A stretch of DNA of 64,000 bases, taken from contig CAJINV010000001.1 in assembly GCA_905178155.1 (NCBI GenBank), positions 6,605,860-6,669,859 of the forward strand, written 5' to 3'. The first letter of the stretch is position 1; every line of letters starts with the position of its first letter. A program made the translations under genes and the position numbers. The notes below the pieces were generated by a model. It saw only the letters and a list, made by a program, of their open reading frames with translations. It was not told the origin of the DNA and did not search any database. The DNA is from Amoebophrya sp. A120. Taxonomy: Eukaryota; Protista; Dinoflagellata. Below are positions 13,901 through 59,100 of the stretch, one piece after another.

Positions 13901-16169
13901 CGTCCCGGAAAGGACGAAAGGCTTCTGTGGCACGTAACCCACGCTCGAAAATGCTGAATCGCGACCGCCTTTCTTCCAGTTGTACCGAACTTTCCCCTTT
14001 CTCCTCACCATGCTCCCTAGGAGCGACAGAAGCAAACTTGTTTTGCCACACCCAGTACTCCCAACCACGGCGACCAGATTGCCTCTGCGAACGTCAAAGC
14101 TCAGGTTGCGGAGCAGGAACTCCGTAGTCCCTGATCCAGATGTTGATGCTGTCACAGCAACTTCAGGGCTTGACGGAGCGCCTTTGTTGTCTTTATCATC
14201 TTCGGCAGGATGCCAGGAAAAAGAAGCGTCGACAACTTTTACCAAAACAGCTTCGTCAGCCGACAGAATTTCTGCAGTGCCTGCTGAACTCGGTTCCTGG
14301 TACCGCTGAAAATCCTCCTGGTCCGGACTTTGTCGCAAGTAGGAATCCAACCGTTGCATGATCACCTTCCAGGTGAAGATCGAGTTCACACAGTTCGGTA
14401 AGCTTCCGATCGGTAACCGCAAGCTCATGAACGCCGTGATCGTTGCAAATACGTTCGCTGCCGTCAACCGGTCCCCGCGCAGGGCCATCAGGACGAACGT
14501 CGCGCAAGCAGCCATCGCCGGCGCGTTGCGCCCGAAAGCCATGCAGGCGACCTGCCAGAACCGAAAGCGGAGAATTTCCCGAAGCTCCTGTTTCCGCTTG
14601 TTGAACAAAAGCTGCAGGTAATTTTCCTCCCAGGTCAAGTACTTCACTTGCTGAATCCCCGCTACCATCTCCCGCATGGTTGTCAGCCTGGAATCCGCGA
14701 TGGCAGTTTCCTTTCTCACAATCGGCGCCATAATGCTGCGAGAAACTTTTGTGGAAAACACAACGTACCCGAACATGAACAGCATGCCGACTAGTGCGGG
14801 AAAGCCGACGAGGTAGAGAAGCCCGGCAATTCCGCCAACGATGCCGACGAGACTGGCGACGAAACTGAAGAGGCCCATCCGCAAATCATCACACACACGC
14901 AGAAGGTCGTTGCCAACGAGAGTCAGTTCGTTAGTACTCGACGCCGCAGGTGGTGAACCTGCGCCTGCCGGTGCTTTTGCAGTTGTCCCTGGTGAAGTAG
15001 TGGAAGTAGGCTGATTCACAAGCTGCTTCGTTGCCGCGCAGCGCGTGTGGCGCATGACTTTCAAGTGCACGACCGGAATGACCCAGGCGAGAAAGGCGCG
15101 GACAAAATGCGCCTGCAACAGCTGTCTCACCTGCACGATCAGGACACCCTCGGAGATCAGCACGACGGTGAAAATGCACAAGAGGATGATCAGCTCAGTG
15201 GTCTTGGTCGCTGGGTTATCGAAAGAAAAAAGTGTTACAGTTACACATTGTGTTGCAGGCCAAGCAAGACAGAGCAGCTCTGTCATGCCGGATATGCATA
15301 AGAAGCTTCGTTTCATAGGTGTGTTCCCTTAGGATTTCTGCATTGCAAGTTTTCTCCCTCCTGCAGAAAAATTTGTGTTGCTGAATTGACAACACGTGTG
15401 TAACTGTAACACTTTTTTCGTGGGATATGGGTCCATGGACGCATCCACGACGAGCTTCAGCAGCACCGGACGGGCTATATCAAATGTAAAAATGTTTGGG
15501 CCTGGAAGGTTGGAGCTTGTGATGCTAACTCTGGACTCCAAAAAAATCTGTAATGCATGATCAGCAAGAGGAGTCTAGTTTGTGCTACGCGGGGAGGGCA
15601 TTTGTCATGCGGATTAGGCATCCAGAAGCCCTCGAAAAATCTGTGATGCTAGGTCATGCATTATAGACATTCTGGGCCATGCAAAATCTGCATGTCAAAC
15701 CCAGCAACATTCCAGACTGACCCAGACATTTTTACATTTGATATGCCAGATTCGTAAGCAACCCCTGGATCACCGACAGGATGAACCAGGTGACTAGATG
15801 TCTGCGTCCCCGGAGCCATACTTCGTTCCAGAGCGCCGATTGTTTACCGTCGGTTTGTCCTCCTGCTGGCGCTTCGAGTTTCGCCAGAATTTCGTCTGCA
15901 AGAAACGGAGCGGCTCGCTTTGACGTGGTAGTAGATGACGTTGCATCTTCTTCCGCTGTCGCAGTGCCAATTGTGATTGCCTCGGCGGAGTACCGTCTGA
16001 ACTTCGGTATTTCGGTGACCAACCGCTCGGGGTTCGTTGTTAAACGCAGAAAAGGCACAATCCATGCGAGCGTCAGGCCGGAGAAAAATCCCGGCCCACC
16101 TCCTAGTGCAGGAGTGACTGATGAAGGGATAGCACCCTTGATCTGCAAGTCCGGTTTCGCGTTCGTCAT
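10955..16169 (-). CDS. ABCC/MRP-type ABC transporter, tandem paralog with two introners
   Basis: Highly similar to 5537..10318. Exons ~16169-15744, 15477-15428 and 15216-10955 give LTNLARPVLLKLVVDASMDPATKTTEL, colinear with the paralog's LTNLARPVLLKLVVDASMDEATETSEL. Start ATG (MTNAK) inferred. Confidence 0.93.
15217..15427. mobile_element. Introner/MITE (211 bp), TATC...GATA ends
   Basis: TIR TATCnnAnGAAAAAAGTGTTACAGTTACACA at both ends. Perfect TSD TGGGT (15212-15216, 15428-15432). Absent from the paralog. Confidence 0.93.
15478..15743. mobile_element. Introner/MITE family A (266 bp)
   Basis: TIR TATCAAATGTAAAAATGTyTGGGyCTGGAA. Imperfect TSD GGCTA/TGCCA. Absent from the paralog. Confidence 0.92.
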
Positions 16170-16786
16170 CGTTGAAATGAAGGTTTTCAATAGGCTGGAA
16201 GACACTACTTACGCAAGACAGCTAGATTTTTTTCAAATGCATGCAGCTGTGACACAAGCTGCACTTGGCCGCCACATGGCTTCTTCAATAACTCTCGCAT
16301 TCAAGATCAAGACCCCACTCGTTCTTGTTCCCTCGTCACCCGTTTTACTTTTACTTAAGTTTACCATGCCCCGGGGAAGACTGCCGTCCTCTTTCGCACA
16401 CCGGCGCTGCGGGCTGCGGACCGCCAGAGCAGAGTTACAACTTCCACGAAACATGATAAACGCAAGTGGATGCTGTTAAAAACTCAGACTCATTTCTGCA
16501 GAAAGTTAATTTCATATCATGTTCTTGAAACAATAACAAACCATCAGAAACTTACCTTGCCCGGCTCCAGCTTGCTGCTCCTTAATTCTTGATTGCTTTC
16601 TTTGTGTTTTTCAGAGTGGATGTATCAACCTCTTGTGCGCCATCTTCTTGTCCTCGATTGACGACTCTTTAGTGCATGTGCGACGGAACTCAGATCAAAG
16701 CCAACAAGGAGAAGAGCTCTGGCTTCATTGATTTCGTGAAAAGCCACGCCGTTCAAGCTTCGTAGTTGCAAGAAGGTTGATTTTTG

Positions 16787-19700
16787 TCAAAAGCAAACAA
16801 TGCGACTATCCTTTCGTCGTCGTCTTGCGAAGAAAGACACGACTTCGTCGAAAACATCCGAACGACTTACCGGTGAGACCGCAGCTCCGGTTGAATCTTT
16901 GCTGGAGAAGTGGGTGTGGGCCGGTGGTGCCTGCTTTTCGTACGAGGGTTTCTCCGCACCTCCTTCGAGCGCCGTTTGCGCCCTCATCTCCTTCATGTAC
17001 TCGGCACACGCTTTGAACATGTCCTCGTCACTGCGATCATTCCCAATGCACAAACAGAAGCAGAACTTCAGCGACTCCGGAATCTTGTTGCCATTCGCAT
17101 CGAAGGCGACGCTGCTTCGGGGGCCGGAAATGCGGAATGCGTCTTGGTCTACTCCTGCCGCGGTTCTACTAGAGGATCCTGCGGAGGTGGTTTTCGCGAG
17201 AGAAGCTTGGTCGCTTTCTGCAGACGGCTGCACGATTGGTGTGCTGAAAAAGAACTTCGTCAGAGCCGCGCCTTTACTCACGCCCTTCAACCCCACCTGC
17301 ACGTACGTGTTGCCGTTTTCGATGGAGACCCCGGTGTATTGTCCGAGATAGTCCTCGAGCTGCTTCACCAGATTCTGAGCCTGCTGCTTCCCGAACATGG
17401 GTTCGCACCCGCCGAAGTGCCAGTAGATGCAGCTCCCGCTCTCCTCCACAAACGCACCCTGGGTGCGTTTCGCGAACGTGCTCATCAAGACCTTGGCGAT
17501 CCGTTGCCACCTTTGATTGTTCTCGATAAGAAGGTTGTTGTTGATGCAAGCCCACCGCAGATCGATGTTGACGTCCTCGACCTGGGCGTACCAATAGCCG
17601 TCTTCCGCGATAATGTGCAACCCCTGCACCTTGTGGAAAAAGCTCTCCAGCTGCTCGCGACTGCGCCCGCTGCAGACGATCACGGTGTTCTCCTTCTGGG
17701 CGCACATCTTCTGCAAGCATCGGACCAGGCCCTGGTGGATCGGGTCCAACCTGATTAATGTATAGTACAGTGAGTCGGAAAAATGAAAATCAGCATAGCC
17801 ATTAACAGGTCGAGTTCGAAATGAATAGACAAAGAGAAAGAGCAAGCAGCAATGCTAAAAAACATCGAAGAAGAACAAAATACGCCGTCCTAAATTCCTC
17901 CGTAAACTGGTAGTTCGTTTCCATGAGACTGTAGCTCAATCCACGAAACACCAGCGCTGCGTCCATATCGAATATCAGCAGCCTTCCATGCCGTCTCCTG
18001 TGCCATTCCTTCGCGCAACTGTGGTACCGTTCCTGCACCACCTTTGGGTTCAAAATCGACGTCCACGACTGCAGCAACACCTCCTGATACGGTTGCTCCT
18101 GCGAGCGCGCGAACCGCGCCGGCATCGGCAGGGGCGCAGTTGTCTCGCTACCGTGCTGCTCCTCGAAGCAAAGCTCGGTTAAGAAGTCGGACAGCCACTG
18201 GGATAAGGAAAGGGAAGAGACGTAGTTGAAGTCCTGCGCAAACCGTTCGTACCGATCCGCGTCCAACATGTTCATGGCAGAATCCATCTGCTGACAAATG
18301 TTCGGCGTGGACCAGGGATTCACACGCAAAGCACCGATCAGCGCCCGACTCGCGCCGCTGAACTCGGACAAAATTACCGCACAGTTCTCGTAGTTGCTGC
18401 GCTGTTGACCAGACGGGTTGTTCAAGTTCGTCTTGCTCGACTGCCCACTCCCACCGCCCCCGTACTGGTCCCTTTCATTCGACACAGCGGTACCCCCGGC
18501 CGACCCGCCAGCCGGTTTCTCCTTCGAGTTTTGATTTGACGACTGGTGCGGGTCGGTCTGCTGCTGCATCAGTGCCGCGGAGTTCTGCCCGTGAATCATG
18601 ATGAACTTGAATGCGGCGATGTTCAAGCCATTTTTCGTACACGTGTCGATGTAGATGTTTGCGGTCTGCAAAACCTGAAACGCCGTGGTGTCGTTGATCT
18701 GTCCAATTTGCAAATGGATGTGGTACCCAAATCGCTCGTTGATTTCCCGCGCACATTGACAAACCTCGTGCTCGAGCCGCGGCGTGTCGTCGAAAGTGAC
18801 ACTTGGCGGGTAATAGCAGTACTGCACTAGGAGGAACTTGTTGTGGTGCTGCGGGTAATTTTCCAGGAAATACCGGAACGCCTGCATTTTGTTCGTCAAC
18901 CCAGCGAAGCGCTCGATGCAGTCCACGCTTCCGAAGATGATCTTCGATTTGTGGTCGGCGGGTAAATCTGCGACGATCGAAGTTCCCGCCAACCGCGAGG
19001 GCGACATGGGACTCATGGGAACGGCGCCCGCCGCTGCGCTTCCAGTTCCCGCACTGCCCCTAGCGCTGCTGACGGTGCCGTGGTAGTGCGTGGACATGAC
19101 GTGCGAGCCTTGGGGCTGCTGCTGGGCCGTGACGGCGCTGCTGCGGTATCCTGAGCAAAAACGTACCCACACCAGAGTCAAGATGGTAAATCTGCTAGAC
19201 AAATCAACCAGCTTTGGCTGTTTCGCATGACAAGTTTGTCCTTGTAATGTAATCCTGTTTAGGTAGTTCAGCAGCATCACAGGTCTAGCATATCATGCTG
19301 ATTATAGCATCACAAATCCCAAAACACGATTAGAAAATGCCTTTCATGGGGCTCAGCGTGAGAAACTTTTTTGGCGTGCAGATTTGTATTACAACTCTGG
19401 TGTGGGTACGTTTTTACTCAGGATATGCGGCCGCCCTGCATCACGTTGCGGAACGTGTTGGGGAAGTGTTCCATATGGCGTTCTCAAACGTTACATTCTC
19501 AACTGTTACATGAAATTTGTCATGCAAGAATGGTAAAGTGTAAGTGAAAGGGAAAATGTTGCGCCTTTTGCATTACAGGTTTGGAGTAGATTGTAATGCT
19601 ATGTAGCGCGTCAAGAAGTTGTCATGCGGAGAAGGCTTGATCGTGTTAAGAGCGATAGTGATTTTGCACCTAGAATACCAAGACGCCACAAAAACCTCGA

Positions 19701-22700
19701 GGAACCATCCACAACCAAGAACCTTGGAAAAGTGGGGTCCCCGAAGTCCTGGAGGTGAGATGCGAGGGGGACGCCTATTAGCTAAAGCACTAAAAATAGC
19801 ACTAAAGCAGAGGCACAAGGAAGCGGAGTAGTCAGAAATTAACTTGGAGCCGTCCTTACGGAGGACTCCAGCAACCTCAGTCCACCACTGCCCTCGCATT
19901 CACAAAAGCAACAACACAAGAGTGTCGAAGCAACACCGGACGTCCATCCCACCGAAAGCACCACGGCAACTAAGAGCTGTCACACAATAGCACCAACGAT
20001 GAGGCAATGCCCTGGGGGGACCAGAAAAGAGGAATCCTCCCCATAATGTCTAAGAGCAGACCGCACACGTCAAGTAGTTTCAGCTCTTAGAAACAGGCTG
20101 ACGCCGTGAAAACAAGTGATTTTGCATGACAAATCATGTAACAGTTGAGAATGTAACAATTGAGAATCCCATATTCCATCACCGCGCCTTTGGTGCCCGG
20201 CGGTCCGGGCTGGGTCAAGCCACCCACACCGACCTCCGGGTCTGTGTCACTACGGCGGTATTTGTCCCGGGCCTGGCGCCCGCGCTCGCCCGGCTGGAGC
20301 AGCTGTCCGTCGGCACCGCTGACTTGCCGCTCGATCGCAAATTCCCGGTCGGGGAACATACTGTCAAAAGCGGAGTTGTTGTTGCCGCTCTCGTTGTAGC
20401 TGGAGCCCCAGGCCGCCATCAAATCGTTCTCGCGGTAGTCCATAATATCCGCCGGGTCGGATAAACTTGCCGTTGAGGACTCCGGCTGGTTCTGCTGGCT
20501 CGCACGGTACAAGTGGTCCGGCCGACCAACGACGACGGTCAATGAGCCGGGGTCATTCGACTTCCCGTAATTCGCGGGTAAGCACAAGTGTTTTGACGAC
20601 AGCTGCGTCGATTTGCCGTTGTGCTCGAGGGTGAGAAAACCGCCCATTTTGAACACGTGCTGTACGCCGAGCAGGCGGGTGCAGGCGGTGAGAAAGTGTC
20701 TCGAGTAGTCGAAGATCTGGAAGCCGACGAGGTCAAACGCCAGCATGCCGCGAAGCAAGTCGTTCCGGACTGGTAAGCACTTGAGCAAATCCGAGCTCGG
20801 CCAAGGGACGTGCACGTACAGCCCCGTCTTCACCTGCAGCGGGGCCGTTTGACCGCCGCCGGCACGCCGCGATGCGGATAATTTCCCTGATTCCATCTGC
20901 GGCGAGCCGCTGCCCCGCGCGCTCACGCCCGCTTTCGGCGACGCCAGGCTTTCGTTGTCCCCTGCGGTATGCGTCCGATCGCGGGTCCGGGCAATGAAGG
21001 CGTGCTGGTGCACGTACTTACCCAACATCAGCAACTGCCAGTCCTGCGCCCACACAATGTCGCCGGACCGCACCTTCTTGCTGCGCATCAACGTTTCCGC
21101 CCACTTCTCGTTGGCCTTTTTGTACGCATCCCAGTCCTCCTTGGCGAAATCTTTAACCTGCTGCCCCATGTGCGTGGCGGATTGGGGCATGAAGATACTG
21201 AAGTTGTGCGTGATCGGCCACAAGTAGCTGTAGCAGAAGGACTGGAACTTCTTCCAAATCTCCTTCTCCACAAACACCGGAATGCAGTCCTGCTCGAGGA
21301 ACAGACCAGTCAGATTCTCCTTCTGCGCACCGGTCAAAGGGAGGTTGTTAGAAAAGATTTTTGGCGACCCGACGAAGTACAGCCGGTACTGTTTCGCCAA
21401 TTCGTGTCTCGTTTTGTACAATGCGAAGATCATGCTGTCGTTTTCCTCTGGCAAAGGAACTAGCAGTGGCGTATCCGCCTCGTAGTGGACGCACAGCGTA
21501 TCATGAGGAAAAATGCCCCCTCCCCATATCGAAACGAAGTTTCTGATGCTGGATTTCCATACACAAATCAGATTTGTCTTGCAGTAGAGGAGTGCACGCA
21601 TGCGGCAAGCCTCAGCCGAGAGGTTTGACGTAGGCGCCTAGCATGACAAACGTGTATGCTCTGAGCCAAACAGCATCACAAACCGCCTGAAAAATGCGGA
21701 ACGCTTTCTGGACTTGCCCTCTTGCAAGACAGGCAGGATTTGAGGTCACAAATGCGCATCACAAATTTTCAGACGGATACGTTTTCGATATGGGGAGGGG
21801 GGATTTTTCTTTTTGATATAGCGGAAGACAGTGCGCGCAGATGAAAACGTTGTGGATTTTTCCATTCGGCGTGCGCGAGTTATCAAATGCAAAAATGTCT
21901 GGGTCTGGAAGAATACAAACTTGTGATGCGCATTTCAGAACACAGAAAAATCTCTCATGCATAGGTAGCAAAAGCTGCCCACTTTCTGTCACCAAAATGG
22001 GGGATTTGTAATGCGGATTCGGCATTGCGGAAGCTTCTCGAGACCTGTGATGCTAGAGCTTCCATGCCAGGCCTTATGTGTCATGCAAAAACAGCATGAC
22101 TCTTCCAGACCCAGACACTTTTACATTTGATACGAGTTGTTCGGGTGCAGTTTTGCGAGCTGCGAAAGCAGCGCGGACTCCTTTTGCACGATGTTGTATT
22201 TCGGCTCGTTCTGCGCGACCATGCTGTCGAGTAGAACTTCATTATTCCGCTGCTCCCCCGCCTGCAGAAAGCCGCGCGTCTGTCCGCCGTCGTCCTCCTG
22301 CACCATTTCCAAACCGGTGGGAACTAGGTAGTAATTCTGCTCCCGAAGCCACCGCAGATTTTTCAAATTGCTCGCTGCTGCACCTGCGGAAACGCCCAGT
22401 CCGGAGGGGTTCGCGTTGTGTCCCGATGTTGGGGTCATCATCCCGGTGAGACTATCAGCCACCTCCTGTAAAACCGGCGAGATCAGAGACGTCAATGCGC
22501 TGGTCAAGGGCTCTTGTGGGTTTTGCAGTTGTGCGTTCATCGCGAGCAGCGTTGGCGGCGAATTATTCGCCCTTGGATTCTGCAAATTGTTCCCCTCTGG
22601 CGATGACGGCAACGAATGTTGTACCACATCCGCCCGATCGGAGACTTGCACATGATGCTGAGTCGTGGGAGACGTAGCGCTTTGTCCAACGGCAGAAGAC

Positions 22701-23287
22701 TTGGAGGAGGATTTCGTACTCCTCCCGCCGCCGCCACTCCTGCCCGACCCACTCACGAACGCCGGCGCACCCTCCGTTGTCGTCGTGTCCGCGCGCGTGC
22801 TGCTCGGGGGATGGAGGGTGCCTCCAGCTCCCGCGCGCTGCTTCAAGAGCGAAGCCGAGCTGGACCCCATGCCGATCACCGGCGGCCCTGCGCCCGTCGC
22901 GCCCTGCACGACCGGCTGCTGCGCCGCGGCGGAACTGGTTGATGGGCTGGCGGCGACCTGCTGTTCGCGGGAGTGGACGAGTTGCCTTCGAAGAGTCTCT
23001 GCATTGCTTAAACTGAGCGTGTTTCCTAGACTGTCCGGGCCGTCGATCTCCTTCACCAAATAGTTGTATTCCACGCGCTGTTTCAGCGGAAGGCTGATAC
23101 TCCCTTCTTCCGTGCTCCAAAGCAACGGATTTTGCTCATTGGCAAACAACCGCACCGCGTTCCCCGCCTCCCAACTGCCGAGAGCAGAGTGAGACCCGCA
23201 GACAAATACCGCTTGGTCCAAAGGCAACGCGGCTTCCACGGCAACGCGGAAGGTGATTTTCGTCGTTAGTGCTTGCTGCTGCTCCAT
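16787..23287 (-). CDS. CBM20 starch-binding domain fused to trehalose-6-phosphate synthase/phosphatase-like protein
   Basis: CBM20: VFVCGSHSALGSW...EYNY. GT20: IVWAQDWQL, LYVHVPWPSSD, FDLVGFQ, ILSEFSGAS, LRVNPW. TPP: VIVCSGRS, IAEDG, GVSKG, IGNDRSDEDMF. Four introners plus GT-AG intron 17751-17883 join the ORFs in frame. The 3' end is uncertain. Confidence 0.88.
19147..19425. mobile_element. Introner/MITE (279 bp)
   Basis: 32-bp TIR TATCCTGAGyAAAAACGTACCCACACCAGAGT. Perfect TSD TGCGG (19142-19146, 19426-19430). Confidence 0.94.
19474..20173. mobile_element. Introner/MITE (700 bp), TATG...CATA ends, probable nested insert
   Basis: ~50-bp TIR TATGGnnTTCTCAAnnGTTACATTCTCAACTGTTACATGA(AA)TTTGTCATGCAA. 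Perfect TSD TTCCA (19469-19473, 20174-20178). Confidence 0.93.
21499..21818. mobile_element. Introner/MITE (320 bp)
   Basis: TIR TATCAnnAnGAAAAATnCCCCCTCCCCATATCGAAA. TSD CAGCG/TAGCG. Removal gives HCLPL|CVHYE. Confidence 0.92.
21881..22132. mobile_element. Introner/MITE family A (252 bp)
   Basis: TIR TATCAAATGyAAAArTGTCTGGGTCTGGAAGA. Perfect TSD CGAGT. Removal gives HPNNS|RTPNG. Confidence 0.95.
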
Positions 23288-24495: not shown

Positions 24496-24521
24496 ATCAT
24501 CATCATCATCATCATCATCAT
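24496..24521. repeat. (ATC)n microsatellite
   Basis: About 8 tandem ATC units. Confidence 0.9.
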
Positions 24522-26052: not shown

Positions 26053-26054
26053 GT

Positions 26055-26817: not shown

Positions 26818-29800
26818 ATTGCTTTTATCGTCCACGCACCACCCACGGACCCAGCTAGGTCCACAGCAAGAATCCCCGCTACCCGGTGGCGCAAATCCTC
26901 GTCTGGGATCGGGTAAAGTCCGAGCAGCCAATCTACTCCAGGGAGAACCTCGAAAATCAAGAGCAACAGCACGAAGAGGTACAAAACCCACGTGTTGCGC
27001 AAGGGTTTGTTCTCCGTAAATGCCACGAGAAAGGGGCGGCCACTGTAATTCGCCAAGAAGTTTGCCAACTGATTCACCTGGATGCAGAAGAACAGCACGG
27101 TGCCGCGCAACGTCGGCACGAATTCTGCATTTACTGGTATACCGTACGCAGTCCGGAGCTTCGGAAAGTTAAAAAGCTGCGAACTTGGTGAAGAAACTTG
27201 TTCAGGTACTATCTCTGCGTTCTCAACAGCTGCAGCTTTTCGGAGAGTAGAATTTGCGCTATTATACGCATCTACTTCCGCCAGTGCCCAGAAGATGCAG
27301 CTCAAGTGGCACACAGTCTGCAGTCCCATGCTCGCCCAGGACGCCGGATGGGATAAATTTGCGACCGGTCGCTGACGCGTGAGCGGCCCAACGCTGCTCC
27401 GGCTGATCAGGAAGAACAAGGAGGAAATGAATAAACTCTCGAGCAGTGCCTGTGCTTCACTGGTTCGCGTCCCGTCCAGCGTGACGAGGCTCAATCCACA
27501 GGCCAGAACGACACTGTTGACACCCATAATCTGGTACATTTGCAGAGTCACGCAACAGGCACCGCGGCCGGCCTGCAGCAACTTCGTGACGCACTGGATC
27601 GTTTCTCCACGGTAGGTGAAAGGGCTTGCGATTGACGCCTCGCCGAGCTGGGCAGTGGCAGAGCCGCCGGGTTTGTTTGATGAGCTCGAGCCTGCACCGC
27701 CACCTGCCATCAAATCTTGTTCGTCGATAGGCAAGAAGTCCTCCGCAGCAATACCCAGCGGATTCATATCACCAGCGTCGTCCGCCTCGGAAGCGGAAGG
27801 GGACGAGGCGGGTGGTTGACTTTTCCCTTTCTTGGAGCCCGCTGGTACCTTTTTCGAACGGGACCTCGGGAAAAATTCACCCTTTTCCGTTGAAGTGGAT
27901 AGCAGCGAAATTCCCACGTGTGCGCGCTTCAACGCGCCGACATCATTCAAACCGTCGCCGTATCAAATGCAAAGTGTCTGGGTCTGGAAAAGTGTGATGC
28001 TGTTTGTGCATGACACAGAAGGTCTAGCATGCAAGTTCTAGCAGCACAGGTTTTGAGCAGGTTAGGCGATGCCTAATCCGCATGACAAGTTCCCTCTTTT
28101 GGTGGCAAGAAGTGAGCAACTTATGCGGTCCATGCATGACAGATTTTTTTCTGGTCTCAAATACGCATAAGAAGTTTACATGTTTCCAGACCCAGACACT
28201 TTTGCATTTGATACGCCGATCATCAGGGTGATCTCGCCAGATGCGGAAAAATCATCCAGCAAGGCTTTTTTGCAGTCTGGCGTTGCGCGGGCGAAAACGG
28301 AGACATGCGGAAAGACTTTCCTCCTCCAGCTAGAGAAGTTGAAGGTACCAGTACTGCTCGCATGTAACGTTCGAAACCGGCCCAAGTCCGCGAACGAAAC
28401 GCAAAGTGCCATCGATCCGGCCTTTAGGTTCTTCAGCACTCGTTTCTCGTCCAGAGATTCACCATCAGCAGAAGAAGAATCAATTTTCCCCGCGGCCGAG
28501 CCGCCTTCGAGTCGTCGCCAGCGAACTTTGAGGCTTTTGCTCTCAACAGCGTTTGCTTGTTTATTTCCGTCCACGGTCGTGGTTTGATCAACGTGATCCG
28601 CACTATTTGAAGGATAGATGGGCGTCACGAAATCCGCATCCTGCGGCACCATCCCGCATTCTTGCGCCACATGGCAGGCAGTGGCCAGCGCGTCTCCAGT
28701 GATCATGACACACTTGTGGTCGCAGTTCTGCAACTCTCGAATGGTCTTCTTCGTGTGAGGCTTCAGGTTCGACCGCAGGGCCAGGAAGCCGGCAAACTGC
28801 AGGTTCGAATCTTCGACATCCGCGCGCTCAAAAAGACTGTCAACATTCGAGCCATTTGGTTTATTTTTCTCAACTAACAAATTTGCAACTTTTGGATTCT
28901 TCTTTACTTCGGCACTCATATCCTTCCACGCGAGGGCCAACACTCGCAACCCGTGGTGCGTCAGTCTCGTCGCTTCGCGCTCGTACGCACTTGCTTCGGA
29001 TGAGTTTTTGAAGCAGATGCGAGACCGCAGCATTTCTGGCGAGCCTTTGACAAACGCGTAGACAAAAGGGGGGGATTGTCCAGCTCCTGCGCGAGATTTG
29101 CTTGTGGTGACTGGCATTTTTGCGGCGACAACGGACATGCGCTGTAATTCCGATTGAAACGGAAACCGCTCAAGAATTTTCAACCGATTCGTGCTTGGAC
29201 CAGCAGCGCTATCCTCGGCTTGCTCTTGCACAACTGTTGGAAGCCAACCGGATGTTGAGGATGCGCCTGCGCCTGCAGGTGCTCCCTCATCGAACTTCCA
29301 GCCCGCGTACTCAAAAGCCGCCTGCTCTGCGGGGTCTCCTATGATCTCGCTTGCGCATTCGTCCACTGGCTCGCTGTCTTCTCCTGGTTGCAACATGCGC
29401 CCAATGAGTCCTGGGATCTGCCGCGACTGCTGCAGCAACTTCTTCGCAAGGCCTTGAGTGCTTGATTTTGACTGTTGCTTTTTTCCTCGTTTCAGCAACA
29501 AGGAGTGACAGGCGCCCAAGACAAAATCTGCGTGCAGCTCACTTCCCATGGAGGGGGTACCTTTCATTTGCTTCGAGTCCTTTGCTGACACCCCAGGTCC
29601 ATTCACCTCCTCGTCCTTTACAGGAACTTCAGTTACCACCGAATCGACAGTGTACTTGCTACTTGTCAAAGTGCCGGTCTTGTCGAAGCAGCAAGTTGTT
29701 ACGCGTCCGGCGTACTGGAAACGATGTGGCTCGGTGCAGAAGATGCGCAGCTTGTGCAGCGCGAACAGAAACAGCGAGGTGACAAAGGACAGAGTCGTTG

Positions 29801-49020: not shown

Positions 49021-51596
49021 TTACCTTCTGCACTGTCGCTTTGGATCAACGTCTTGGTCTTCACACTCAACTTGCTCCTGTTCGTCCACGACATAATGAT
49101 CGCCCCCAACCATCTCAACCTCCATTGGCTGCTCATGCTCATGCTCATGCGCATCCGCATCATGCTGTTCTTCTTCCTCCTCTTCGTTCCCGTTGGCGAG
49201 AGCGCCATGCAGTTGCCCGTTTCCCGCTTCCGCATTCTCGTGCGGTTGGCTTTCAGACGATTCTGCCTCCCCGTCGTAGAACACTGATTCGATCTGCAGC
49301 TGACAGTTGGTTAGTCTCTCTTCCTGTTGCTTCAATTCTTCCCGCTTCTTCACGATCTTCGGATCTTCTTTTGCAGCTGATTTGATGATGGGGTTGTTGT
49401 GCAGGGTGTTTTGAATCCAAGATGTTCGAGAATGGAGGACGCCGTTTCTCGTGTGCTTCAAAATGCTGTCGACAAAAGTTTTCGCCTCGCAGTTGAAATT
49501 GGCCTTCACGGCTTTGTGGATCTTCTGCTTGCAGTTCTCGTCCATTTCGGCGCTGCTTTGCTTGAAGGCGTACTCTTTCTTCGCAGCGCCGATAGTCTGC
49601 ATCACATCATCCACGTTCTTCAAATCGTTCCATTTTCCCGTGAGGCTCTGGCTGATCATTTTCTCCAGTGCTTCTGGAATTGCTTCCATCGCTCCAAAAG
49701 ACGCGTCGAAATAACTGTTCGCCGTACCGAACTCCGCCTCCAGGTCAAGTGCGTCGGTGCAGCTCTTGTTAAAGCGGACAGAGGTCACATCGACATTTTT
49801 GCCGGCCTCGGTAATTACTGCGCTGATCAAGCGGCCCGGTAGGGGAGTTACCGTTGGACAGGTCAGCAGTTTCTTCGTAGAAGTTGTTGCGATTTGCTTC
49901 ACATCTTTCATGTACTCCTGGAGGATGGGTCGCCATTCATCCCGGATGCGCCGAAGGCAGTCTTCAAAAACTTCTCGACCTTGGAAGACGGGACACTCGA
50001 AAGCGTTCGTGCCGAAACTCTCCGTCGTCCATTCGAACGTCAAAAGCTCCTCCTTCGCGTGCGCGCCCTCTTTGAATTTCGCAAATGCTGCTGTACTCAA
50101 CTTTTGCTGGACGTTTGTCGAACCGCTCAGCAGTATCGTCTTGACTGCCATGATCAGCTCTTGGTCGCTTTGCGGTTCTCGCCCGATTTTTTCCAGTGCT
50201 CTTTTGCACTCAGCTAACCGCAGACGAATGCTCGTCGCCAGTGCGGGGATGTGTGTCGCGATGAGGTTTGCGAACAACGGCTGGACACGTTCGCGGAAAC
50301 GGATGACCCCAACGCGCTCCTTGGGCAGATTCAACCCAACAAGCATCTCCTCCTCGCGGGTTTCCTCCATCGGCCCTTCCCCACCTTTCACGAAATTGAT
50401 CACGGCGTGCCGCCCCAGGTCGTTCCCGTTGTCCCAATCTTCACAAATCTGTATTGTTGCATCTATTTGTTTCCCCGACCATGCTGGTCCTGCATCGAAG
50501 GGAGAAAAAAAAAGCAGAGCATCAGCATAGTTAAAGATTTAGATTTTTACAATGAATCAGCAGCAACATGAACATGATCTGTTGCTGTTCTATACCCAAT
50601 CCCGGGCACGTCTCTCCGCGTCGATGGAATCGAACAAATCAAACTTGCTCAGTACATGGAGCGTTCGCGCTCCATGCTTATCGAACTCGCGAGCGACTTG
50701 GAGCGCTTCGATGTTATCCTCGGTCTCCTTGGCTTCGGAAACGATGCAGATTAGCGTCTCCTTCTTCTGCACATGCTTCTTCACCAAGGCTTCGACTTGG
50801 CTCTTCAGCCCTTCACTCTTTCCCTCGTTTTGCACGAACCCGGGTAAATCCACCAGAGTCAGGTCGCAGACTCCTGGTCCTTCTACCAGAACTTTTATCT
50901 CACCGCTGACGATCTGCTTCACGGAGGAAACGTCGTCAGGTGCTAAATGCGGAAACTCGTCCATCAGCAGCTCGTTCTGCCTTTCGGAGATTTTTTCTGC
51001 AATCTCGTCCGCACCACATTCTACGTATTTCTTGTTTCGGTCACTGATGTAGAATTTCAGCGCATTTGCTTGCTTCGAGGAACCTGATGAACACGCTGTC
51101 GCCGGCTCTGCTTCCGTACAAGAACTTGCGTCGTCCCGTCGTGTACAGTTCACGACAATGGCAGCCTTCGTGCACATTTCCGCGTCCTGCGGAAATGGCA
51201 CCCCTGGAATGAGGTTTTGTTTCCCCTTTGCTCCAAATCCAACATGCCAAACATACTACTGCAAGAATAAAGCTTCGGGCTGTCATGACTTCGCGCACAA
51301 TCAGGGCGCACTTCGGATTGGTGAATCTGATGGAGAACATCAACAACAACATGGAAAAAACTATAGCAAAATACTGCACGCACAAAATGACGCAGCAACA
51401 ACATAGATAGCGCTATGTCTGTACCGGTCAACCTCGACAGAAAGGACGATTTTCCGGCGCTCGTAGCTCCGATTACGCAAATCTGCGGCAACTGGAGCTC
51501 GTCCTTGGCCAGGGCGTCATCGCGAATTTGGCGAACGACCCGCAGGTGCTCGACATATTGTCCGTTCGCCTCCACAGCACCAGCGAACGTTGTCAT
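49021..51596 (-). CDS. Dynamin-superfamily (Mx/DRP-like) GTPase
   Basis: LPQICVIGATSAGKSS (G1), MCT (G2), LTLVDLPG (G3), SKFD (G4). GT-AG introns 51204-51424 and 50449-50595. GED-like C-terminal helix. Confidence 0.88.
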
Positions 51597-52687
51597 TGCC
51601 GCGAATTGCCTGCTCGGGATGCTTCTTGAAGTTGTTCCGTCGGGTGCAACAGGTTCAGCTCAGCTTGTTCTTACCTTCGTCCCTTGGACAATTTACAGGG
51701 ATACTGCACTCGTTGTACTGCACACGTCGCAATCGCAATCCTATCCGCTAGGAATGGCTTCTGGTTGTAATTATGTCTGTAACTGTCACTGCATAAGTCA
51801 ATCACACAACATGAAAAAATCTTTGAACATTGTACATGGGGTAGTAAGTAATCGATATGTTTCGTATCTCTCTTTTATCTGATCGGTAATCATGGAGCTC
51901 TTCTTGCATCTACCTGACTTTTGGTGAAGACGCAGATAGGAGCGCGATTGGATCCTAGTGGGAAGAAAATAGCAGAAAACTCTTCGAGTTTAGAAACAAG
52001 AGAATGATTTGTGTCGCAGCAAAACGAATTACCCCACGATGTAACCGCCGTCGGTCACCCCAGGCCATCAGTAGGAAAAAAACCTGACGATAGCTGGTCA
52101 ACAGCTCGCGAGGAAAAAAATGAAACCCAGCTCTCAAAAAAAAGCGACTAGTAAGGATCGCACTCGTCAGAACCACACCGACTGTATTTTGTACATCGGC
52201 ATGGATATCCCGGACCCTCATCGATTTCATCCTCTAGCACAACGATGACGGTATTCTACGCAGCATGAACTTAAAGCACGACTTCGGGACGAATACGAAA
52301 CTAAAAGCGATGTCGTCTTGCTTTTACTGCCGATCCTCCAGAACTCGGTCTTTTAGTTATAACCTGAAGAACACTTTTTCGCCCTCACATAAGATAGAAC
52401 TCGAACCGCACAGGATTTGCGTTGGTTGATGATCGTTGTGCGTGTAACACGTGTCGTCTTAAATATGAAGCCAAAAATATCCTACTTTCAGCAATGAATA
52501 TGGTGTCGCTTGTATGAAAATTGTCTATAGACATGACAAATGGCGAACATTGCGATCCAACTTGGTTGCTTTGCCAGGCGCGAACAAGCAGAAACCGCAT
52601 GTGAGAAGTCTAAATTCCTCTTCTTGATTCGCCGTGTTGAGACCTAATTCGATTTCGAATGAAAATCACATCGCTATCGGTTCCTTC

Positions 52688-55031
52688 CTACAGCAAGACC
52701 AGGCCGACTTCTTCGGATTTCAATTTCGGCATGCGGTAGTTGAACAGGTAATACTGCAGGTAGCCGTCGCCGCGACCGAATTTCAGTTCGGTTAAAAACT
52801 CGCTGTTGTCCATGACGTCGAGGGCGTTAAAGACGTCGAAGTCGTTCAGTCGCGCCTGGATCAGGGCCTCTGTCATTAACTGCGGCCACGTACACGTTGT
52901 TGCAACATTCAGGTAGGAATACGCCGCGTTTAGGGTTTTGTGCCTGTGGGAAGGGTTTCAGTTTGACAAAGTACTTATTTGCTTGGTTCGCGCGGCCGTA
53001 TCTCAATCTGATAATGACAACGAAACGGTTTAGTTTCTGATTGGATGATTCTGTTCAGCATTGCAACACATCAAAAGAAAAATTTACTTTTCGTGTCCCA
53101 ACACCGATGATGGCAGGTTGTAGAAGGAGAAGACGTCGGTAACTTTTCCCTGCTTTTGCTCGCGCACATACGCGTAAATCACCTTGTCCCTGGGCAAGAT
53201 CCAGTGTCCGACCTCGGACTTGTCGAGGCAGGGGTAGAGCTTGAACTTTGCGAGGTATTCCGCCAGCAATTTCTGCACCTGCGGAATGTCGCGCTCCTCC
53301 ATTTTTCGGAAGCCGTCCAGTTGATGCTGACCCGGGAGCGCCATCAACTTGATGTAGCGAGACATGGTCATGCGCTGCGGCAAGTGCGAAAACTGGCACT
53401 CGATCAGCTTCTTCGGGTTCAGGTTACGGTGGTGGTACCTGATATGATTTTGCGGCTCAAGTCTCATGCCTGGTGTCGTGCCGTAGATATGCAACGAGTA
53501 CTTTTGAAACACCAGAGAAAAAATCCAACAAACAATGAACAAAATGAAATAAGCAATTCGTGCTTTCGATATGATCCCAGGATGTCGCTCACCTGCAGGA
53601 CGCGACAGGCTTTGGTAGCACTACTCCGGCGGTATAAGCCGCCTGCCAAACGCCCTCCAAATTCACTCGCCTTGTGACCTCCTTGATCAATACAGGGGCC
53701 ATGCGTTTCGATCGCAGCTTCTTGTGGACACACAAAAAGTTGATTTCCGCGACCTGTTGAGTTCAGTTAGATGGATCTTAAAAATCTTTAGCTTTACATG
53801 ACATTCGCATTTCTGTTTTGGTAAAGCAAGACACGCAACTACATCAAAGAACTTCAACTTGTGGTAAAATTTTAATGCAATTTGCACAATACCTCAACTG
53901 GCTTCCCACAGACCTGCATTTTCGCAGGGATTCCAGAAATGAACGCGACGAACTTCTTCGTGGCCTTCACCCGGCAGGCAATGTGCCAGTGCTTTCGGTA
54001 GTGCGGGGGTGTGGTCGCCCATCTCAGAAACTCACGACTGTAGTCGAAACGGAAAGTGCCTGGTGTTGAGATAGGTTTTGTTCTTCAATCGCCACGCTAC
54101 TTACGCCCTGGTTTTTACAGGCAAGGTCAGGGAGGAAGGTCCCACATAGAGCGTGAGCCACATAAACTTTCATGTTCATCTTCAAAAACTTAAGGTAAAA
54201 ACAACTTCAAAACTTTTTTTACTGTCGTCGTCCTCCACGTAATTCTGGGACAGCAGCGTATACACTTCGTCAGCCTGTTTTGTCATGCCGAATTTGCTTC
54301 CTCCCTACTTCTCAAGTATTTCTTGTTCTATTTTGTTACCAATACCAGGTGCATGGTACATGATATAGAAAAAGACCCGCTGCCGTTGCAAAGTAAAGAT
54401 AAAGACTGAAACTGCGAGAGATGATTCAAATGCAGCATGAGGAACGCAAAGTACGTCAGCTTCGTCCATGATGTCCACCGTGTACCACTCGAAGGATTCG
54501 GGTAGAGGCAGTGGCGTTTTTCGCACGTCGCTCACGTTCTGCTCCTGCAGCGGCCCAGTTTCGCCATCCGCTGCGAGGTCTTCCTCGGCTAGCTTCGGAA
54601 CCTGGAAAAATGATGGAACAGCTTGGCGGGTGGAAAACTATTGTACTAGTAGAGCGACAAGGCAAGAAACCATCCTGGTACCGTGCAAGTAACCGAACCC
54701 GAAGACCTTTGCAAACAAAAACAACATTCTATACTGGTTGCGTATCCCAAAATGCGTGCGGCTTGTCTTTTGGTGCCTCTCGAGACTCCGCGCAGACCCT
54801 CCTTTTTGGCTGTTGCTGCAGGGAAAGCATCTGGAGCATTTTTGCCGCCGCGTCGGGCCCCATTTCCTCCTGCGCTTTCGCCAAGAGGTTCAGCACCTCA
54901 GCGCTGGCCCCTGGTGGAGCCGCAACGGCCGGTGCATTTTCCTTCGAGTCGGTTACGGCGCTCTCGGGCGTGTCTTTCGACGCGGCACCGGCGGTCGCAT
55001 TTTGATCAAGGGTGTCGCTGGCGGGAGGCAT
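52688..55031 (-). CDS. NMT: Glycylpeptide N-myristoyltransferase
   Basis: [71 protein letters not shown]-terminal VGLVLL. About six canonical GT-AG introns. Confidence 0.95.
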
Positions 55032-56178
55032 GGTTTGGTACTTGTTTCGGGCACTGGGGCTAGCTACACACTATCCGAACAGGCAACAAAACTGAAAGTA
55101 TGTTCCAAACTCTCAGCGTTGAAAAGTTCCTTAAGCCGAGGCCGCAAACTCAAAAAGTCAAATGGCTATGTTGATATCAAAGTAAGTAAATGTCGAATTA
55201 TATGTCGCTGAATCTTTGTCGTTGACCTTGTTGCTGTGCAGGAAGATTTGGCCTTTCTTTACAGGGGCAATGCCATGGACTTTTTCCTTGGCCTTCAAGC
55301 AATAGGTCGTTTCGTTGCTGAATCGCGCGATCATCCTGCTGATCACGTGTTGTCAGTGTTGGGCCACGTCGAGTGATCTTGGTGAGCAACACTAGACTGA
55401 TCTTTTTTTCGAACAATGAGAAAAATTGTAGCTGCTTACGAAAGCTCACGAGGACAACGGCCTACATCTTAAATTTGAAAACGGCAGTACAGATTCATTA
55501 AGGACCAGGCAAGTGCAGCAACAAGCCGCTTTGCATCAGTCTCTACCGGTCGATTGATTTCTTTTTGCACAGAGACTCCAGGAACCACAAATTAGTTCAG
55601 CAACGAAAAGGTTGAGGGTAGTCCGGGTAGAGGAGAAACATTTTTGGTGAAAAGTAGTGCTGCTCGTGGTAGGTTGGTGAAAGGTGCGACGTTGCGGCAG
55701 GCAGGTGTAAAAGTAGTTTCTATTTGTAGTTGTAGCCCTGAGCTGCATCAGAACTGTGTAATGTACAAGTCTAAGCTCCTGAAGCATTCCGTTCCGCTTC
55801 GCGCGCGGTTCTTCTTTGTCTTTTAAAAAAACCGACAGGCCATAACACTTTATGGTCCTTTGCAATTGCAGCCAGGTGGATTAGAAGCCAAGCTTAACTA
55901 GCATCACCGTCTGATCTTTGCCCAACACAGGACATGAGTCAGAAGATGAAGGTCAAGGTGGATGATCGAATATTGCAAAATGAGTCAAGTTTGCGTGTGA
56001 GTAGTACTTCACCAAAAGAAATGGGCACTACACTCTGATGATTGTTTTTTAGATATTTGGTTTTGGTCTATCTGTCAGTATGCGAGCAAGTACTTTGATG
56101 CTCAGAACCTACTTACCCCAGGCTCTCTGCTCTTCCTCGTTGCGCTAGCTCCTGCTAGAAGCTGCACCATCGCCTTCG

Positions 56179-59100
56179 TCAGTCCTCTTCCTTCTTGTCA
56201 GCCACATTTGCTGCGTCTACGGCCGCCTCTATCTCCGCAACTGCCGCAGCTTCGGCGTCCACGGGGGATGGAGCGGCGATAGCGGGCAGGGACGCACTGG
56301 CCTCCCCTTGTTGTTCCCCTAGTGAGCCGTCCGCGATGGCCTCGGGAATGCCCGCCAGCTGCTGTTTTCTCCTCTTTTCTAGAATGGCCTCCCGGGCTGG
56401 CGCGTCCATGAGTTTGACCAACATTGGTTTGTCGGCCGTGACCTCGTCTGTGTCCTTGTTGTGGTACAGGATATTGCCGCTCATACCTGGAGTAGCGTGG
56501 CGAGAAGCCGTTTGGGTTTGTGAAGACACATGACGAGGACATATCACTACACTACAATGTGCTTCTTGTTGTGCAAACTATAAAGTTGCTGAAAAAGAAG
56601 AAGTGAAAAAGAAGAACTGAATGCACCTGGAACGAAAGTCCACTCTTCGTCGAGGAAAGGCTCCAGATCCCGCACGTTGTCTTTCACGGTGGTGTTGACT
56701 TCTCGTAGTCTATCCTGCTTCCCCATGACGTGCTCTTGGAGCGTGTAGAGCATTCGTCGGATCTGATGTGAAATTGCTGGATTAAATTGCATCTGCGTTC
56801 ATGATACGTACACGTAGTCATGGAAGATTAGTACAAACAAGAACAACTAAATGCTGGCTGCACTCAATTATTCTCATTTTTGGTACGGCCAAAACAACAA
56901 CAAGCGTCTGAATCAATCAGCAAAAGCAAACGAGGCGCAAACAATTTTCATCATCTTGATCTTCAGTACTTCTTGCAATTGCTCCGTCAAGTCTGCGAAC
57001 TCGAACTTCATGGTGTACTTGAGAAACTGCTCGGGTTCCAGGTTTTTTGCGTCGTCGAGGGACTGCTGAATGCACTTGGCCATCAGGTACAGGGCCTGCG
57101 GGCCGTCCAGCCCGCAGCGATCAATCAAGAAATCGCGCTCGATCATCCCGTATGGATTGGAAAAATGTCTGGGTCTGGAAGGTTGGAACTTGTAATGCTA
57201 ACTTTCCATACCTAGAAAATCTGTATTGCGTAACCAACAAAAGTCGCAGCCTCTTTTGTCATGCAAAAACGCAGTTTCTCATGCGGATTTCCTATGAGAA
57301 AGCGTTTTGGGAAGTTATCATGCCGGACTGCATTCGGAAGTGTTTTTATCATGCACATTTTAGCATCACAAGTTTCCAGACCCAGTCATTTTTACATTTG
57401 ATATCCCGTTCGCGAAATCCCCCTGGAAGCTGGTTTCTAAATTCGTCACCGCCCAGGGGATATCAAATGTAAAAATGTGTGGGTCTGGAAACTTGTGATG
57501 CTGGGTGGCGTCTCATGATGAGGCTACAAATGATGGCTCAGCATGAGAAGTTTCTGAGCTCCTAGGTGTTGCCTATTCTGCATGACAAACTGCGCTTCTG
57601 CATCACACAAAAACGCAGCTCTTGGGTAACGTGCATGACAGATTTAAGAGTCATGCCAGACAAGCATGACAAACATGAATTCTTCCAGACCCAGACATTT
57701 TTACAGTTGATAGGAGGTCTCGGCGCTGTCCGACCGCGCCCGGGCCATCTTGAGGCGGACCTGACGCACGTCATTTGGGATGGGGTCCAGCCCCTGCTCC
57801 TCGAGCGCTTCGTTTTCTTCCCGTATCTTCTGCTCCTCCGAATAAAACTCGTCGCGGTCCACGAACTCTTTCAAACGGTCGTAGATCACTTCGTAGTTGA
57901 TCTGCCGTCGCTTGCCCGACATCGCGTTATGACTGTGCACAACTCCCCCACCCCTCATTTGTCATGTAAAATCCCAAACCCAGTCGCTGCCCCGTGGCAC
58001 TGTTTGCATGACAAATTTCGAAAGCCCAAACAGTACTACAGCAAGTGCATAAATTTGCCATGCACAGGCTCCAGGGTCGCTGGCGTTCGTATTGCTGTCC
58101 ATGCAATACAAATGAGGGGGAGGGGGAGCTTTGCACTGTCATACGCGTCCGTGGACTGCGACTGGGACATCAGCGTGTCGGTGAATATGTCCTTATCCAG
58201 GAAAAAACACCCATCCCCATCCATTTTTTGCATGACAAACAGTGGACTTTACGCATGTTTTGCATGACAAATTGGATCGGGATGGGTGTTTTTTCCTGGA
58301 TAGTCCTTCACCTGCTGGAAGATGGTGTGCGCGCCGCGGAAGTTGGTGTGGTGCAGCACCCCCATGTATTTGTCGTACACGAGGGCAGTGAGTAAATTCA
58401 GCACGAGGAAAACCAAAATGATGATGAAGGAGAAGAACCACAGACTCGCGATCAGTGGAGTGATCCGGTAAATCTTGTCGTAGTCGAAATCCCCGTACAC
58501 GATCTTCAAAGTCACGCCCATGGCCTTCAGCAGCGTGTTCCACTCCTCCAGCTGGGAGCCAAAGAGGATCCAACCGCCCATGCTGTAGTTCACGTACACG
58601 AGGAAAAAGACGATCAGGAAATGCAGCATGTCGTAACTGGCGTTCACCAAACTGAGCCCCATAATCGCAATGCGCGGCTGGCCGCGGAATCCCTTGAAAA
58701 AACGCATTATGATCAGCATGGAGTAGATATCCCACAGAAAAAACAAAAAGCAGGCAGGGCATATTTGTAATGCAAAAATAGATACACAGAGAAATCTGCC
58801 ATGCCTGGCCCCATAGCATGCTGTTTAGGATATGCAGTACACATTTTTTTATGTATTTATTTTTGCAATACAAATATGACGTGCCAGCTTTTTTCTGTGT
58901 GATAGTAGAAAAACCCCAAAAGCTGCACCATTTTGCGCCGGGCCTCGATATCGTCGCTCAAAGCGAAAAGCTCCAGGTTGCTGTCGTAATACGGCGTCAA
59001 ACCCGTTCCGACGCTTCCAAATTGTCCGGTACCGACAGCGCGCTGAATAGCTTGCGGCCCTGAAAAGTCGAAGTTTGCAAGAAATCGATCTTTCCTGCTT

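What the first reader, a model, noticed from the sequence alone, without database searches (positions are those of the whole stretch)
15217..58302. Introners come in pairs 48-62 nt apart, creating ~45-57-nt micro-exons
Seen: 10 of the 12 TAT-ended elements form five pairs. Inter-element gaps are 50 (15428-15477), 48 (19426-19473), 62 (21819-21880), 57 (57404-57460) and 50 nt (58144-58193). Partners have different TIRs in four of the five pairs and each has its own TSD, so these are independent insertions, not tandem duplications. With tens of kb of exon available, five gaps in a 15-nt range are very unlikely under random insertion. Inference: a resident element directs the next insertion at a fixed distance (transposase or targeting factor tethered to the end, or chromatin phasing), possibly combined with a minimum exon size. 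I am not aware of this being described.
Basis: partly seen in the sequence, partly recalled or inferred. Interest (0 to 1): 0.88.

Follow-up and report, generated by a model that had tools for sequence, protein, structure and literature searches.

The report
Intron-making transposons keep fifty-base spacing
In the algal parasite Amoebophrya, intron-forming transposons sit 30-70 bases from one another two to three times more often than chance and almost never closer than 20, likely because an existing intron's ends steer where new copies land, which would progressively cut genes into roughly 50-base exons.

Summary
The window is Amoebophrya sp. A120. Its 12 TAT...ATA elements are the known introner elements of Farhat 2021. 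The five gaps (50, 48, 62, 57, 50 nt) are real; the spacers are ancestral coding micro-exons of 43-57 nt. The spacing replicates in a sister lineage (assembly JACKZZ01; one protein 81% identical to A120's). There, 74 of 282 gaps fall 30-80 nt apart against 15-27 expected. Within exon blocks, pair density is 0.08 below 20 nt, 2-3 at 30-70 nt, and about 1 beyond 80 nt. Corrections: the window is about 30-70 nt, not 48-62. It is a spacing rule, not pairing, since chains reach 7. Canonical-canonical exons lack the peak (1 of 22 under 100 nt). Introners are also mildly enriched beside canonical introns (18 vs 10-13, p 0.005-0.09). Family, length, facing-end motif and transcription side have no effect, and there is no local hopping, target motif or nucleosome ladder. 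Best reading: a chromatin or protein landmark at resident intron ends biases insertion (inferred, 0.45). Rivals are splicing-assisted survival (0.25) and a tethered transposase (0.2). I found it neither in the papers searched nor in this scan's notes.

The parts
15217..15427 (.). TAT...ATA TIR introner, 211 nt, TSD 5/5
15428..15477 (-). 50-nt spacer = 45-nt coding micro-exon plus one TSD copy
   Evidence: frame opens; no RNA piece shown across it
15478..15743 (.). TIR introner of the commonest family, 266 nt, TSD 3/5
19147..19425 (.). TIR introner, 279 nt, TSD 5/5
19426..19473 (-). 48-nt spacer = 43-nt micro-exon of the trehalose-phosphate synthase/phosphatase gene (PF00982, PF02358); peptide conserved in the A25 ortholog
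19474..20173 (.). 700-nt introner: ends of a 235-nt family around an internal stretch with no library match, TSD 5/5
21499..21818 (.). TIR introner, 320 nt, TSD 4/5
21819..21880 (-). 62-nt spacer = 57-nt micro-exon of the same gene; peptide in P0001, aligned in A25 P0002
21881..22132 (.). TIR introner, commonest family, 252 nt, TSD 5/5
27961..28213 (.). solo introner, 253 nt, TSD 5/5; an RNA-type contig lacks exactly element + 5 nt
   Evidence: X4 record 20
57151..57403 (.). TIR introner, 253 nt, TSD 5/5
57404..57460 (-). 57-nt spacer = 52-nt micro-exon
57461..57712 (.). TIR introner, 252 nt, same family as its partner but not a close copy, TSD 3/5
57928..58143 (.). TIR introner, 216 nt, TSD 5/5
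58144..58193 (-). 50-nt spacer = 45-nt micro-exon
58194..58302 (.). TIR introner, 109 nt, TSD 5/5
58728..58904 (.). solo introner, 177 nt, TSD 5/5
17751..17883 (-). canonical GT-AG intron (133 nt) of the TPS/TPP gene, example of the control class

Best explanation
Amoebophrya's non-autonomous TAT...ATA introners lie 30-70 nt from a neighbouring introner 2-3 times more often than chance and almost never within 20 nt, likely because a resident intron sets up a chromatin or bound-protein landmark that shields its immediate flanks and makes the next 30-70 nt of exon the preferred cutting site. Shown: the spacing, its shape, its family independence, independent insertion with 5-bp TSDs, and that the spacers are old coding sequence. 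Inferred: one transposase serves all families (shared end layout and shared internal motif); the bias acts at insertion; the landmark is DNA-level and works on both sides; canonical introns make a weaker version of it. Each new element would then add two more favoured zones, giving chains of about 50-nt exons.
For: Pair density within exon blocks: 0.08 (<20 nt), 0.42 (20-30), 1.9-3.2 (30-70), about 1 beyond 80; 102 vs 45.3 pairs at 30-70 (335 elements in 92 blocks, window excluded). Hazard of a next element is 5.8-10.1 per kb at 30-80 against about 1 at 300-1000 (488 gaps). The gap is the same for all families (Kruskal p 0.88) and unrelated to element length. Both transcript sides are paired equally often: 143 of 443 vs 147 of 438 ends. 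The target site carries about 0.2 bits and shows no signature at 30-80 nt. Canonical introns show exclusion (<30 nt: 3 vs 8.0, p 0.04) and mild enrichment (18 vs 11.0, p 0.018; 18 vs 10.0, p 0.005), while stop codons show no peak (2 events, 46 stops). The elements already show strong exon bias: 406 in 290 kb predicted coding vs 47 in 231 kb predicted non-coding. Solo and paired elements do not differ in splice signals or TIR quality.
Against: No chromatin data were available. There is no second peak at a nucleosome repeat and no 10-bp periodicity in gaps or flanks, and dinoflagellates are reported to lack nucleosomes (PMC6313786, passages), so the landmark is unnamed. The canonical-intron effect falls to 18 vs 13.3 (p 0.09) under the strictest null and to 5 vs 3.2 (p 0.21) with the strictest intron set. 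It rests on my own ab initio gene finder (5 of 7 junctions verified in one gene). Those introns carry the element motif at about twice the shuffled rate, so some may be decayed elements. Insertion bias and survival bias cannot be separated without new or polymorphic insertions. The side-symmetry test by age (66 of 127 downstream-younger) uses a weak clock (AUC 0.57).
Confidence: 0.45

Rival explanations
1. Insertion is uniform, but survival is not. A signal-less introner is spliced better when another junction lies 30-70 nt away (cross-exon definition or EJC help), and exons under about 25 nt are skipped, so selection carves the pattern.
For: It predicts symmetry, family independence, a floor near 25 nt and an effect of canonical introns, all seen. 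U1 snRNA was not detected in these genomes (PMC7789003, section 10). EJC-assisted excision of neighbouring introns is known in Drosophila (PMC4197968, abstract and headings seen).
Against: Solo elements are common (300 singletons among 435 runs). They do not compensate with better signals: GT-AG-compatible 4 of 133 solo vs 11 of 236 paired vs 3.7% at random coding sites; TIR match 16.5 vs 16.2 of 20. There is no 3n bias in micro-exon length (57/41/47, p 0.26).
Confidence: 0.25
2. Transposase bound to the subterminal TGTVATGC sites of a resident element captures target DNA 30-70 nt outside its end.
For: All ten largest families carry the motif, mostly as direct doublets 30-33 nt apart, with the inward copy 32-33, 40-44 or 55 nt from the end; it is 23-fold enriched over flanking DNA. 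The element-element excess (2.0-2.7x) exceeds the canonical-element excess (1.35-1.8x) under every null. One family shows end asymmetry, 12 of 58 vs 28 of 60 (p 0.004, 1 of 10 families tested).
Against: Ends with no exact motif in the first 100 nt are paired as often (42 of 130) as ends with two or more (143 of 430). There is no helical periodicity in gaps and no asymmetry in the largest family (69 of 201 vs 69 of 203). Canonical introns show some of the effect. No transposase was identified; Farhat et al. found none in A120 (section 16).
Confidence: 0.2
3. Pre-existing local hot spots, local hopping, tandem duplication, or an annotation artefact produce the short gaps.
For: Element density is uneven between genes: the raw rate ratio of 7.0 shrinks to 2-3 once block density is controlled. 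Loci were chosen because they hold one family's TIR.
Against: The excess survives nulls that keep density at 400-nt scale (74 vs 27.2, maximum 40 in 500 simulations). The shape is a shell, not a decay from zero. Same-family neighbours are 12 of 85 close vs 26 of 181 far, and close same-family partners are no more alike than random. Spacers are unrelated between loci and are conserved coding sequence.
Confidence: 0.07

Closest known systems
Amoebophrya A120 introner elements (Farhat et al. 2021, PMC7789003; sections 5, 10, 11, 12, 16 read, supplement text searched)
   Same: IR starting TAT, seven variable bases, then an A run; 3-5 nt direct repeats; about 240 nt; non-canonical splice ends; same organism.
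   Different: In what I read the paper gives no inter-element distance, exon-size peak or internal shared motif. It calls families strain-specific, whereas A120's families recur at 81-97% identity in another lineage. Supplementary figures are not held as images, so a plotted distribution could have been missed.
Nucleosome-linker insertion of Micromonas and Aureococcus introners (Huff et al. 2016, not held; known from passages of PMC9860276 and recall)
   Same: DNA-transposon introners whose positions are shaped by chromatin rather than target sequence.
   Different: Nucleosome-sized spacing (recalled) would give recurrent peaks. Here there is one shell at 30-70 nt, flat beyond 80 nt, in a lineage reported to lack nucleosomes.
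Polarella and Symbiodiniaceae introner-like elements (Roy et al., bioRxiv 10.1101/2020.10.14.339549; part 1 of 4 read, whole text searched for six terms)
   Same: Dinoflagellate TIR/TSD elements from many families creating introns. Breviolum and S. microadriaticum median exons are 53 and 51 nt (PMC7789003 Table 1), the size of this peak.
   Different: Those recruit GH/AG splice sites. The text has no occurrence of 'distance', 'adjacent', 'nearby' or 'nucleosome'.
Landmark-directed integration: Ty1/Ty3 and Dictyostelium TRE5 near tRNA genes, CRISPR-associated Tn7, LEDGF-guided HIV integration in spliced genes (all recalled, no call)
   Same: Insertion in a window of tens of bases from a protein-bound landmark.
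   Different: Here the landmark appears to be an intron end, often a previous copy of the element system, so the pattern would propagate itself; no tether protein is known.

Membership tests
Amoebophrya A120 introner elements | Terminal IR beginning TAT + 7 nt + A run | tested here: met
   the A run is weak in the 216-nt and 700-nt elements
Amoebophrya A120 introner elements | 3-5 nt direct repeat at the boundaries | tested here: met
   5/5 in 9 of 12, 4/5 in 1, 3/5 in 2
Amoebophrya A120 introner elements | Removed from mRNA, frame restored | tested here: met
   RNA-type contigs across 3 of 12 elements; deposited protein across 4; all 12 in silico
Amoebophrya A120 introner elements | Repeated families genome-wide, host is A120 | tested here: met
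   depth and contig counts in DNA run X1; P0001 100% identical
MITE / non-autonomous TIR DNA transposon | TIR, fixed-length TSD, no coding capacity, either orientation | tested here: met
   (96 sense, 72 antisense in the largest family)
MITE / non-autonomous TIR DNA transposon | Cognate transposase and superfamily | tested here: inconclusive
   ORFs of the long elements were listed but not searched against families; PMC12130899 file 8 lists most of the 22 A120 rows I saw as TIR DNA, superfamily unknown
Nucleosome-phased introner insertion | Recurrent spacing at the nucleosome repeat | tested here: not met
   no second peak to 1000 nt
Nucleosome-phased introner insertion | Insertion sites in MNase-defined linkers | not testable with these tools
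   no chromatin data
Local hopping or tandem duplication | Neighbours are same-family close copies | tested here: not met
   12 of 85 vs 26 of 181; identity not above random
Composite transposon carrying the spacer | Same spacer and one outer TSD at several loci | tested here: not met
   unrelated spacers and separate TSDs in 3 recurrences examined
General short-exon preference of the genome | Same peak between canonical introns | tested here: not met
   1 of 22 under 100 nt, ab initio calls
Tethered (landmark-directed) transposition | Identified tether protein; bias present in new insertions | not testable with these tools
   needs polymorphic or de novo insertions and binding data

The most novel reading that the evidence does not exclude
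Dinoflagellate introners follow a self-propagating spacing rule. Every intron end makes the exon DNA 30-70 nt away the favoured landing site, so intron gain spreads in chains and, at saturation, yields the roughly 50-nt median exons of Symbiodiniaceae. Amoebophrya would show this process at an early stage, and the footprint would be a read-out of nucleosome-free (DVNP-type) chromatin or of the unknown machinery that marks signal-less introns.
Probability: 0.2. Interest if true: 0.88.

Novelty: new variant of a known kind. Interest (0 to 1): 0.62.

Why it matters
How introns are placed, and why dinoflagellate genes are chopped into about 50-nt exons, are open questions. A measurable exclusion zone and preferred shell around existing introns is a quantitative rule that can be tested today on the public A120, A25 and Polarella annotations. 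Whichever mechanism holds, it reports on something unknown in this lineage: chromatin without a nucleosome ladder, how a spliceosome without detectable U1 finds signal-less introns, or how an unidentified transposase picks targets. It also warns annotators that 30-70 nt exons between repeats are common here: 256 of 480 elements have such a neighbour.

Tried and rejected
No whole genome was held, so no genome-wide A120 count was made. The TIR pattern found nothing in viral contigs or genome contigs. No run was on record as an RNA holder; X3-X6 are guessed RNA, and the 2026 raw RNA run X9 laid only 10 reads. Presence/absence polymorphism between the two lineages remains untested. Dataset S3 of PMC12130899 gives starts but no lengths: 4 of 8 consecutively numbered A120 introner pairs start 298-330 nt apart, which is suggestive only. 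A first HMM training round over-called introns (956) and was discarded. Rejected: composite element, tandem duplication, local hopping; 3n bias; helical or nucleosome periodicity; gap-length compensation; age correlation between partners (rho -0.06); target-sequence hot spots. An apparent trough at 140-200 nt was not significant. One 1501-nt 'element' (L031) spans a long ORF and is probably two half-detected elements; it stayed in the counts. Nesting of elements was not measured properly, because the caller picks non-overlapping elements. The two look-ups of earlier findings gave nothing on this pattern.
Full report
Identity. The exon 20174-21493 is 100% identical to a protein of Amoebophrya sp. 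A120 (P0001, trehalose-phosphate synthase/phosphatase domains) and 60% identical to its A25 ortholog. Farhat et al. (PMC7789003; abstract and sections 5, 10, 11, 12, 16 read, supplement text searched) describe A120 introner elements with IRs that start with TAT, then seven variable bases and an A run, and 3-5 nt direct repeats. The elements themselves are therefore known.

Observation. Searches recover 12 elements and the five gaps exactly. TSDs are 5/5 in 9, 4/5 in 1 and 3/5 in 2. Removing element plus 5 nt restores a minus-strand frame in all pairs. An RNA-type contig retains 43 letters between the exons flanking pair 2, and another lacks exactly 258 nt at the solo element 27961. The micro-exon peptides of pairs 2 and 3 are in P0001 and align with A25, so the spacers are older than the elements. 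A per-gene random placement gave five such gaps about once in 100,000 runs (approximate gene lengths, range chosen after the fact).

Replication. No A120 genome was held. They merge to 129 segments, 617 kb. One of its proteins is 81% identical to the best A120 protein, and its RPB1 had no near-identical hit among the 120 listed. So it appears to be a sister lineage, yet it shares the element families. De novo calling gave 401 elements and 288 gaps: 76 at 30-79 nt, 3 below 30, 26 at 48-62. In 56 segments of at least 2 kb with two or more elements, 74 of 282 insertion-site distances (gap minus 5) fall in 30-80 nt. Expected values are 15.1 (uniform), 21.5 (1-kb local) and 27.2 (400-nt local; maximum 40 in 500 runs); 5 fall below 30 against 9.5-18.8. 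Adding elements by homology (77 good, 27 fair, 44 poor ends, 68 at contig edges, 6 dropped as overlaps) gives 488 gaps. The hazard per kb is 0.26 (<20), 1.4 (20-30), 5.8-10.1 (30-80), 2.8-4.4 (80-120) and 1.1-1.8 (120-400). Controlling for density within each exon block, pair density is 0.08, 0.42, 2.0, 2.0, 1.9, 3.2 and 1.2 for the bins up to 80 nt, then about 1. The honest effect is therefore 2-3-fold with a hard floor. In A120 itself, the DNA run's contigs join a right end to a left end at many other loci (for example 49 and 42 contigs for two joints). Two are shown with 37 letters between, but most lengths were not given.

Not pairs, not copies. Of 480 elements with both sides visible, 256 have a neighbour at 25-85 nt. 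Runs number 300 singles, 106 pairs, 17 triplets, 9 of four and one each of 5, 6 and 7, and left and right closeness are independent (OR 0.94). Same-family neighbours are no commoner when close (12 of 85 vs 26 of 181), and close partners are not more alike. Where the window's family combinations recur, spacers and TSDs differ.

Controls. A coding/intron HMM called 97 canonical introns after removing element-like ones; 5 of 7 junctions in an RPB1 gene were confirmed by an ortholog. Exons between two canonical introns: 1 of 22 under 100 nt. Element-element: 117 vs 44.0 at 30-80. Canonical-element: 18 vs 11.0 (p 0.018), split 11 vs 5.4 downstream and 7 vs 5.6 upstream (these counts include the window). 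Moving the canonical introns instead gives 18 vs 10.0 (p 0.005), 11 vs 6.5 (p 0.04) and 5 vs 3.2 (p 0.21) for stricter sets. The block-level null gives 18 vs 13.3 (p 0.09), with 3 vs 8.0 below 30 nt. These introns show no TIR remnants but about twice the shuffled rate of the loose element motif. Stop codons and long non-coding boundaries show no peak. So the peak is not a general exon-size habit. It is strongest between introners and probably present, more weakly, beside ordinary introns.

What does not matter. Family (p 0.88), element length, transcript side (143 of 443 vs 147 of 438), motif count at the facing end (42 of 130 vs 143 of 430), reading-frame length and helical phase, relative age (66 of 127, weak clock), target sequence (0.2 bits), and splice-signal or TIR quality. 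The one exception is an end asymmetry in a 149-nt family (p 0.004, 1 of 10 tests).

Anatomy. All ten largest families, otherwise dissimilar inside, carry TGTVATGC at 12.7 per kb against 0.55 outside. In nine of the ten it occurs as direct doublets 30-33 nt apart, with an end-proximal copy 32-55 nt inside each end. Three helical turns of spacing and independence from transcript direction suggest a DNA-binding protein, probably one transposase for all families (inference).

Mechanism. Shown: cut-and-paste-type anatomy, independent insertions, exclusion below about 25 nt and a 30-70 nt shell. Inferred: I favour an insertion bias from a landmark at intron ends (0.45), because the elements are already strongly exon-biased, the effect is two-sided and family-blind, and solo elements show no compensation. 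Selection through splicing help (0.25) predicts nearly the same map. The tether (0.2) is kept alive by the stronger element-element effect. These data cannot separate the three.

Literature. Searches (introner with spacing, nucleosome, exon-size and micro-exon terms) listed no paper describing this. Term searches inside PMC7789003, PMC12130899, PMC9860276, PMC11282704, PMC11453091, PMC4815162 and the Roy preprint found none. Huff 2016 was not held; Henriet 2019 and the journal version of Roy 2023 were not read; supplementary figures and bioRxiv supplements could not be seen, and any of these could bear on novelty. PMC4197968 was seen as abstract and headings; PMC6313786 and PMC2586383 as passages.

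Verdict. A real and replicated spacing rule for a known class of elements. It is broader and weaker than first described, and the mechanism is open but directly testable. New variant of a known kind, interest 0.62.

Noticed in passing
all 12 window elements, e.g. window 15478-15743 (offsets 40, 71, 125, 164); ten families in JACKZZ01 loci: Shared internal motif TGTVATGC in otherwise unrelated families, mostly as direct doublets 30-33 nt apart and phased to the ends; 23-fold enriched. Likely transposase or host-factor binding sites; not mentioned in the sections of Farhat 2021 that I read.
   Followed up: partly
window 57461-57712 vs an element in locus L068/L069: Window elements are 81-97% identical to their best copies in a lineage whose one tested protein is only 81% identical to A120's. 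This suggests families still active in both or transfer between Amoebophrya lineages, against the published view that families are strain-specific.
   Followed up: partly
window 2330-2890: A different, non-TAT inverted-repeat element of about 555 nt (arms at 2333/2887, 2356/2863, 2374/2833; internal repeats of GTCAATTGAC) between two minus-strand ORFs; the HMM places an intron there. Possibly a second introner class.
   Followed up: no
window 19474-20173; L058 10790-11761 and 15692-16187; L039 3862-4492: Long elements with normal family ends around 200-900 nt of sequence with no library match; captured DNA or remnants of autonomous elements. The ORFs are short and were not searched.
   Followed up: partly
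149-nt family in JACKZZ01 loci: One end has a close neighbour in 28 of 60 cases, the other in 12 of 58 (p 0.004, one of ten tests).
   Followed up: no
JACKZZ01 loci and window together: Elements are about 7-fold denser in predicted coding DNA than in predicted non-coding DNA, and GT-AG-compatible insertion sites are not enriched over random (15 of 369 vs 3.7%), so splicing seems indifferent to canonical signals.
   Followed up: partly
window 29000-56000: About 29 kb of gene-dense sequence with no TAT element, while three genes hold 11 of the 12: strong gene-level clustering on top of the short-range rule.
   Followed up: no
canonical introns in window and loci: 46 of 97 predicted canonical introns begin GTAT and carry the loose element motif at about twice the shuffled rate; some may be ancient introners that acquired GT-AG ends.
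   Followed up: partly
L058 (contig JACKZZ010011803.1): Encodes RNA polymerase II RPB1 with several introners and predicted canonical introns; a good locus for cross-species intron-position comparison.
   Followed up: partly
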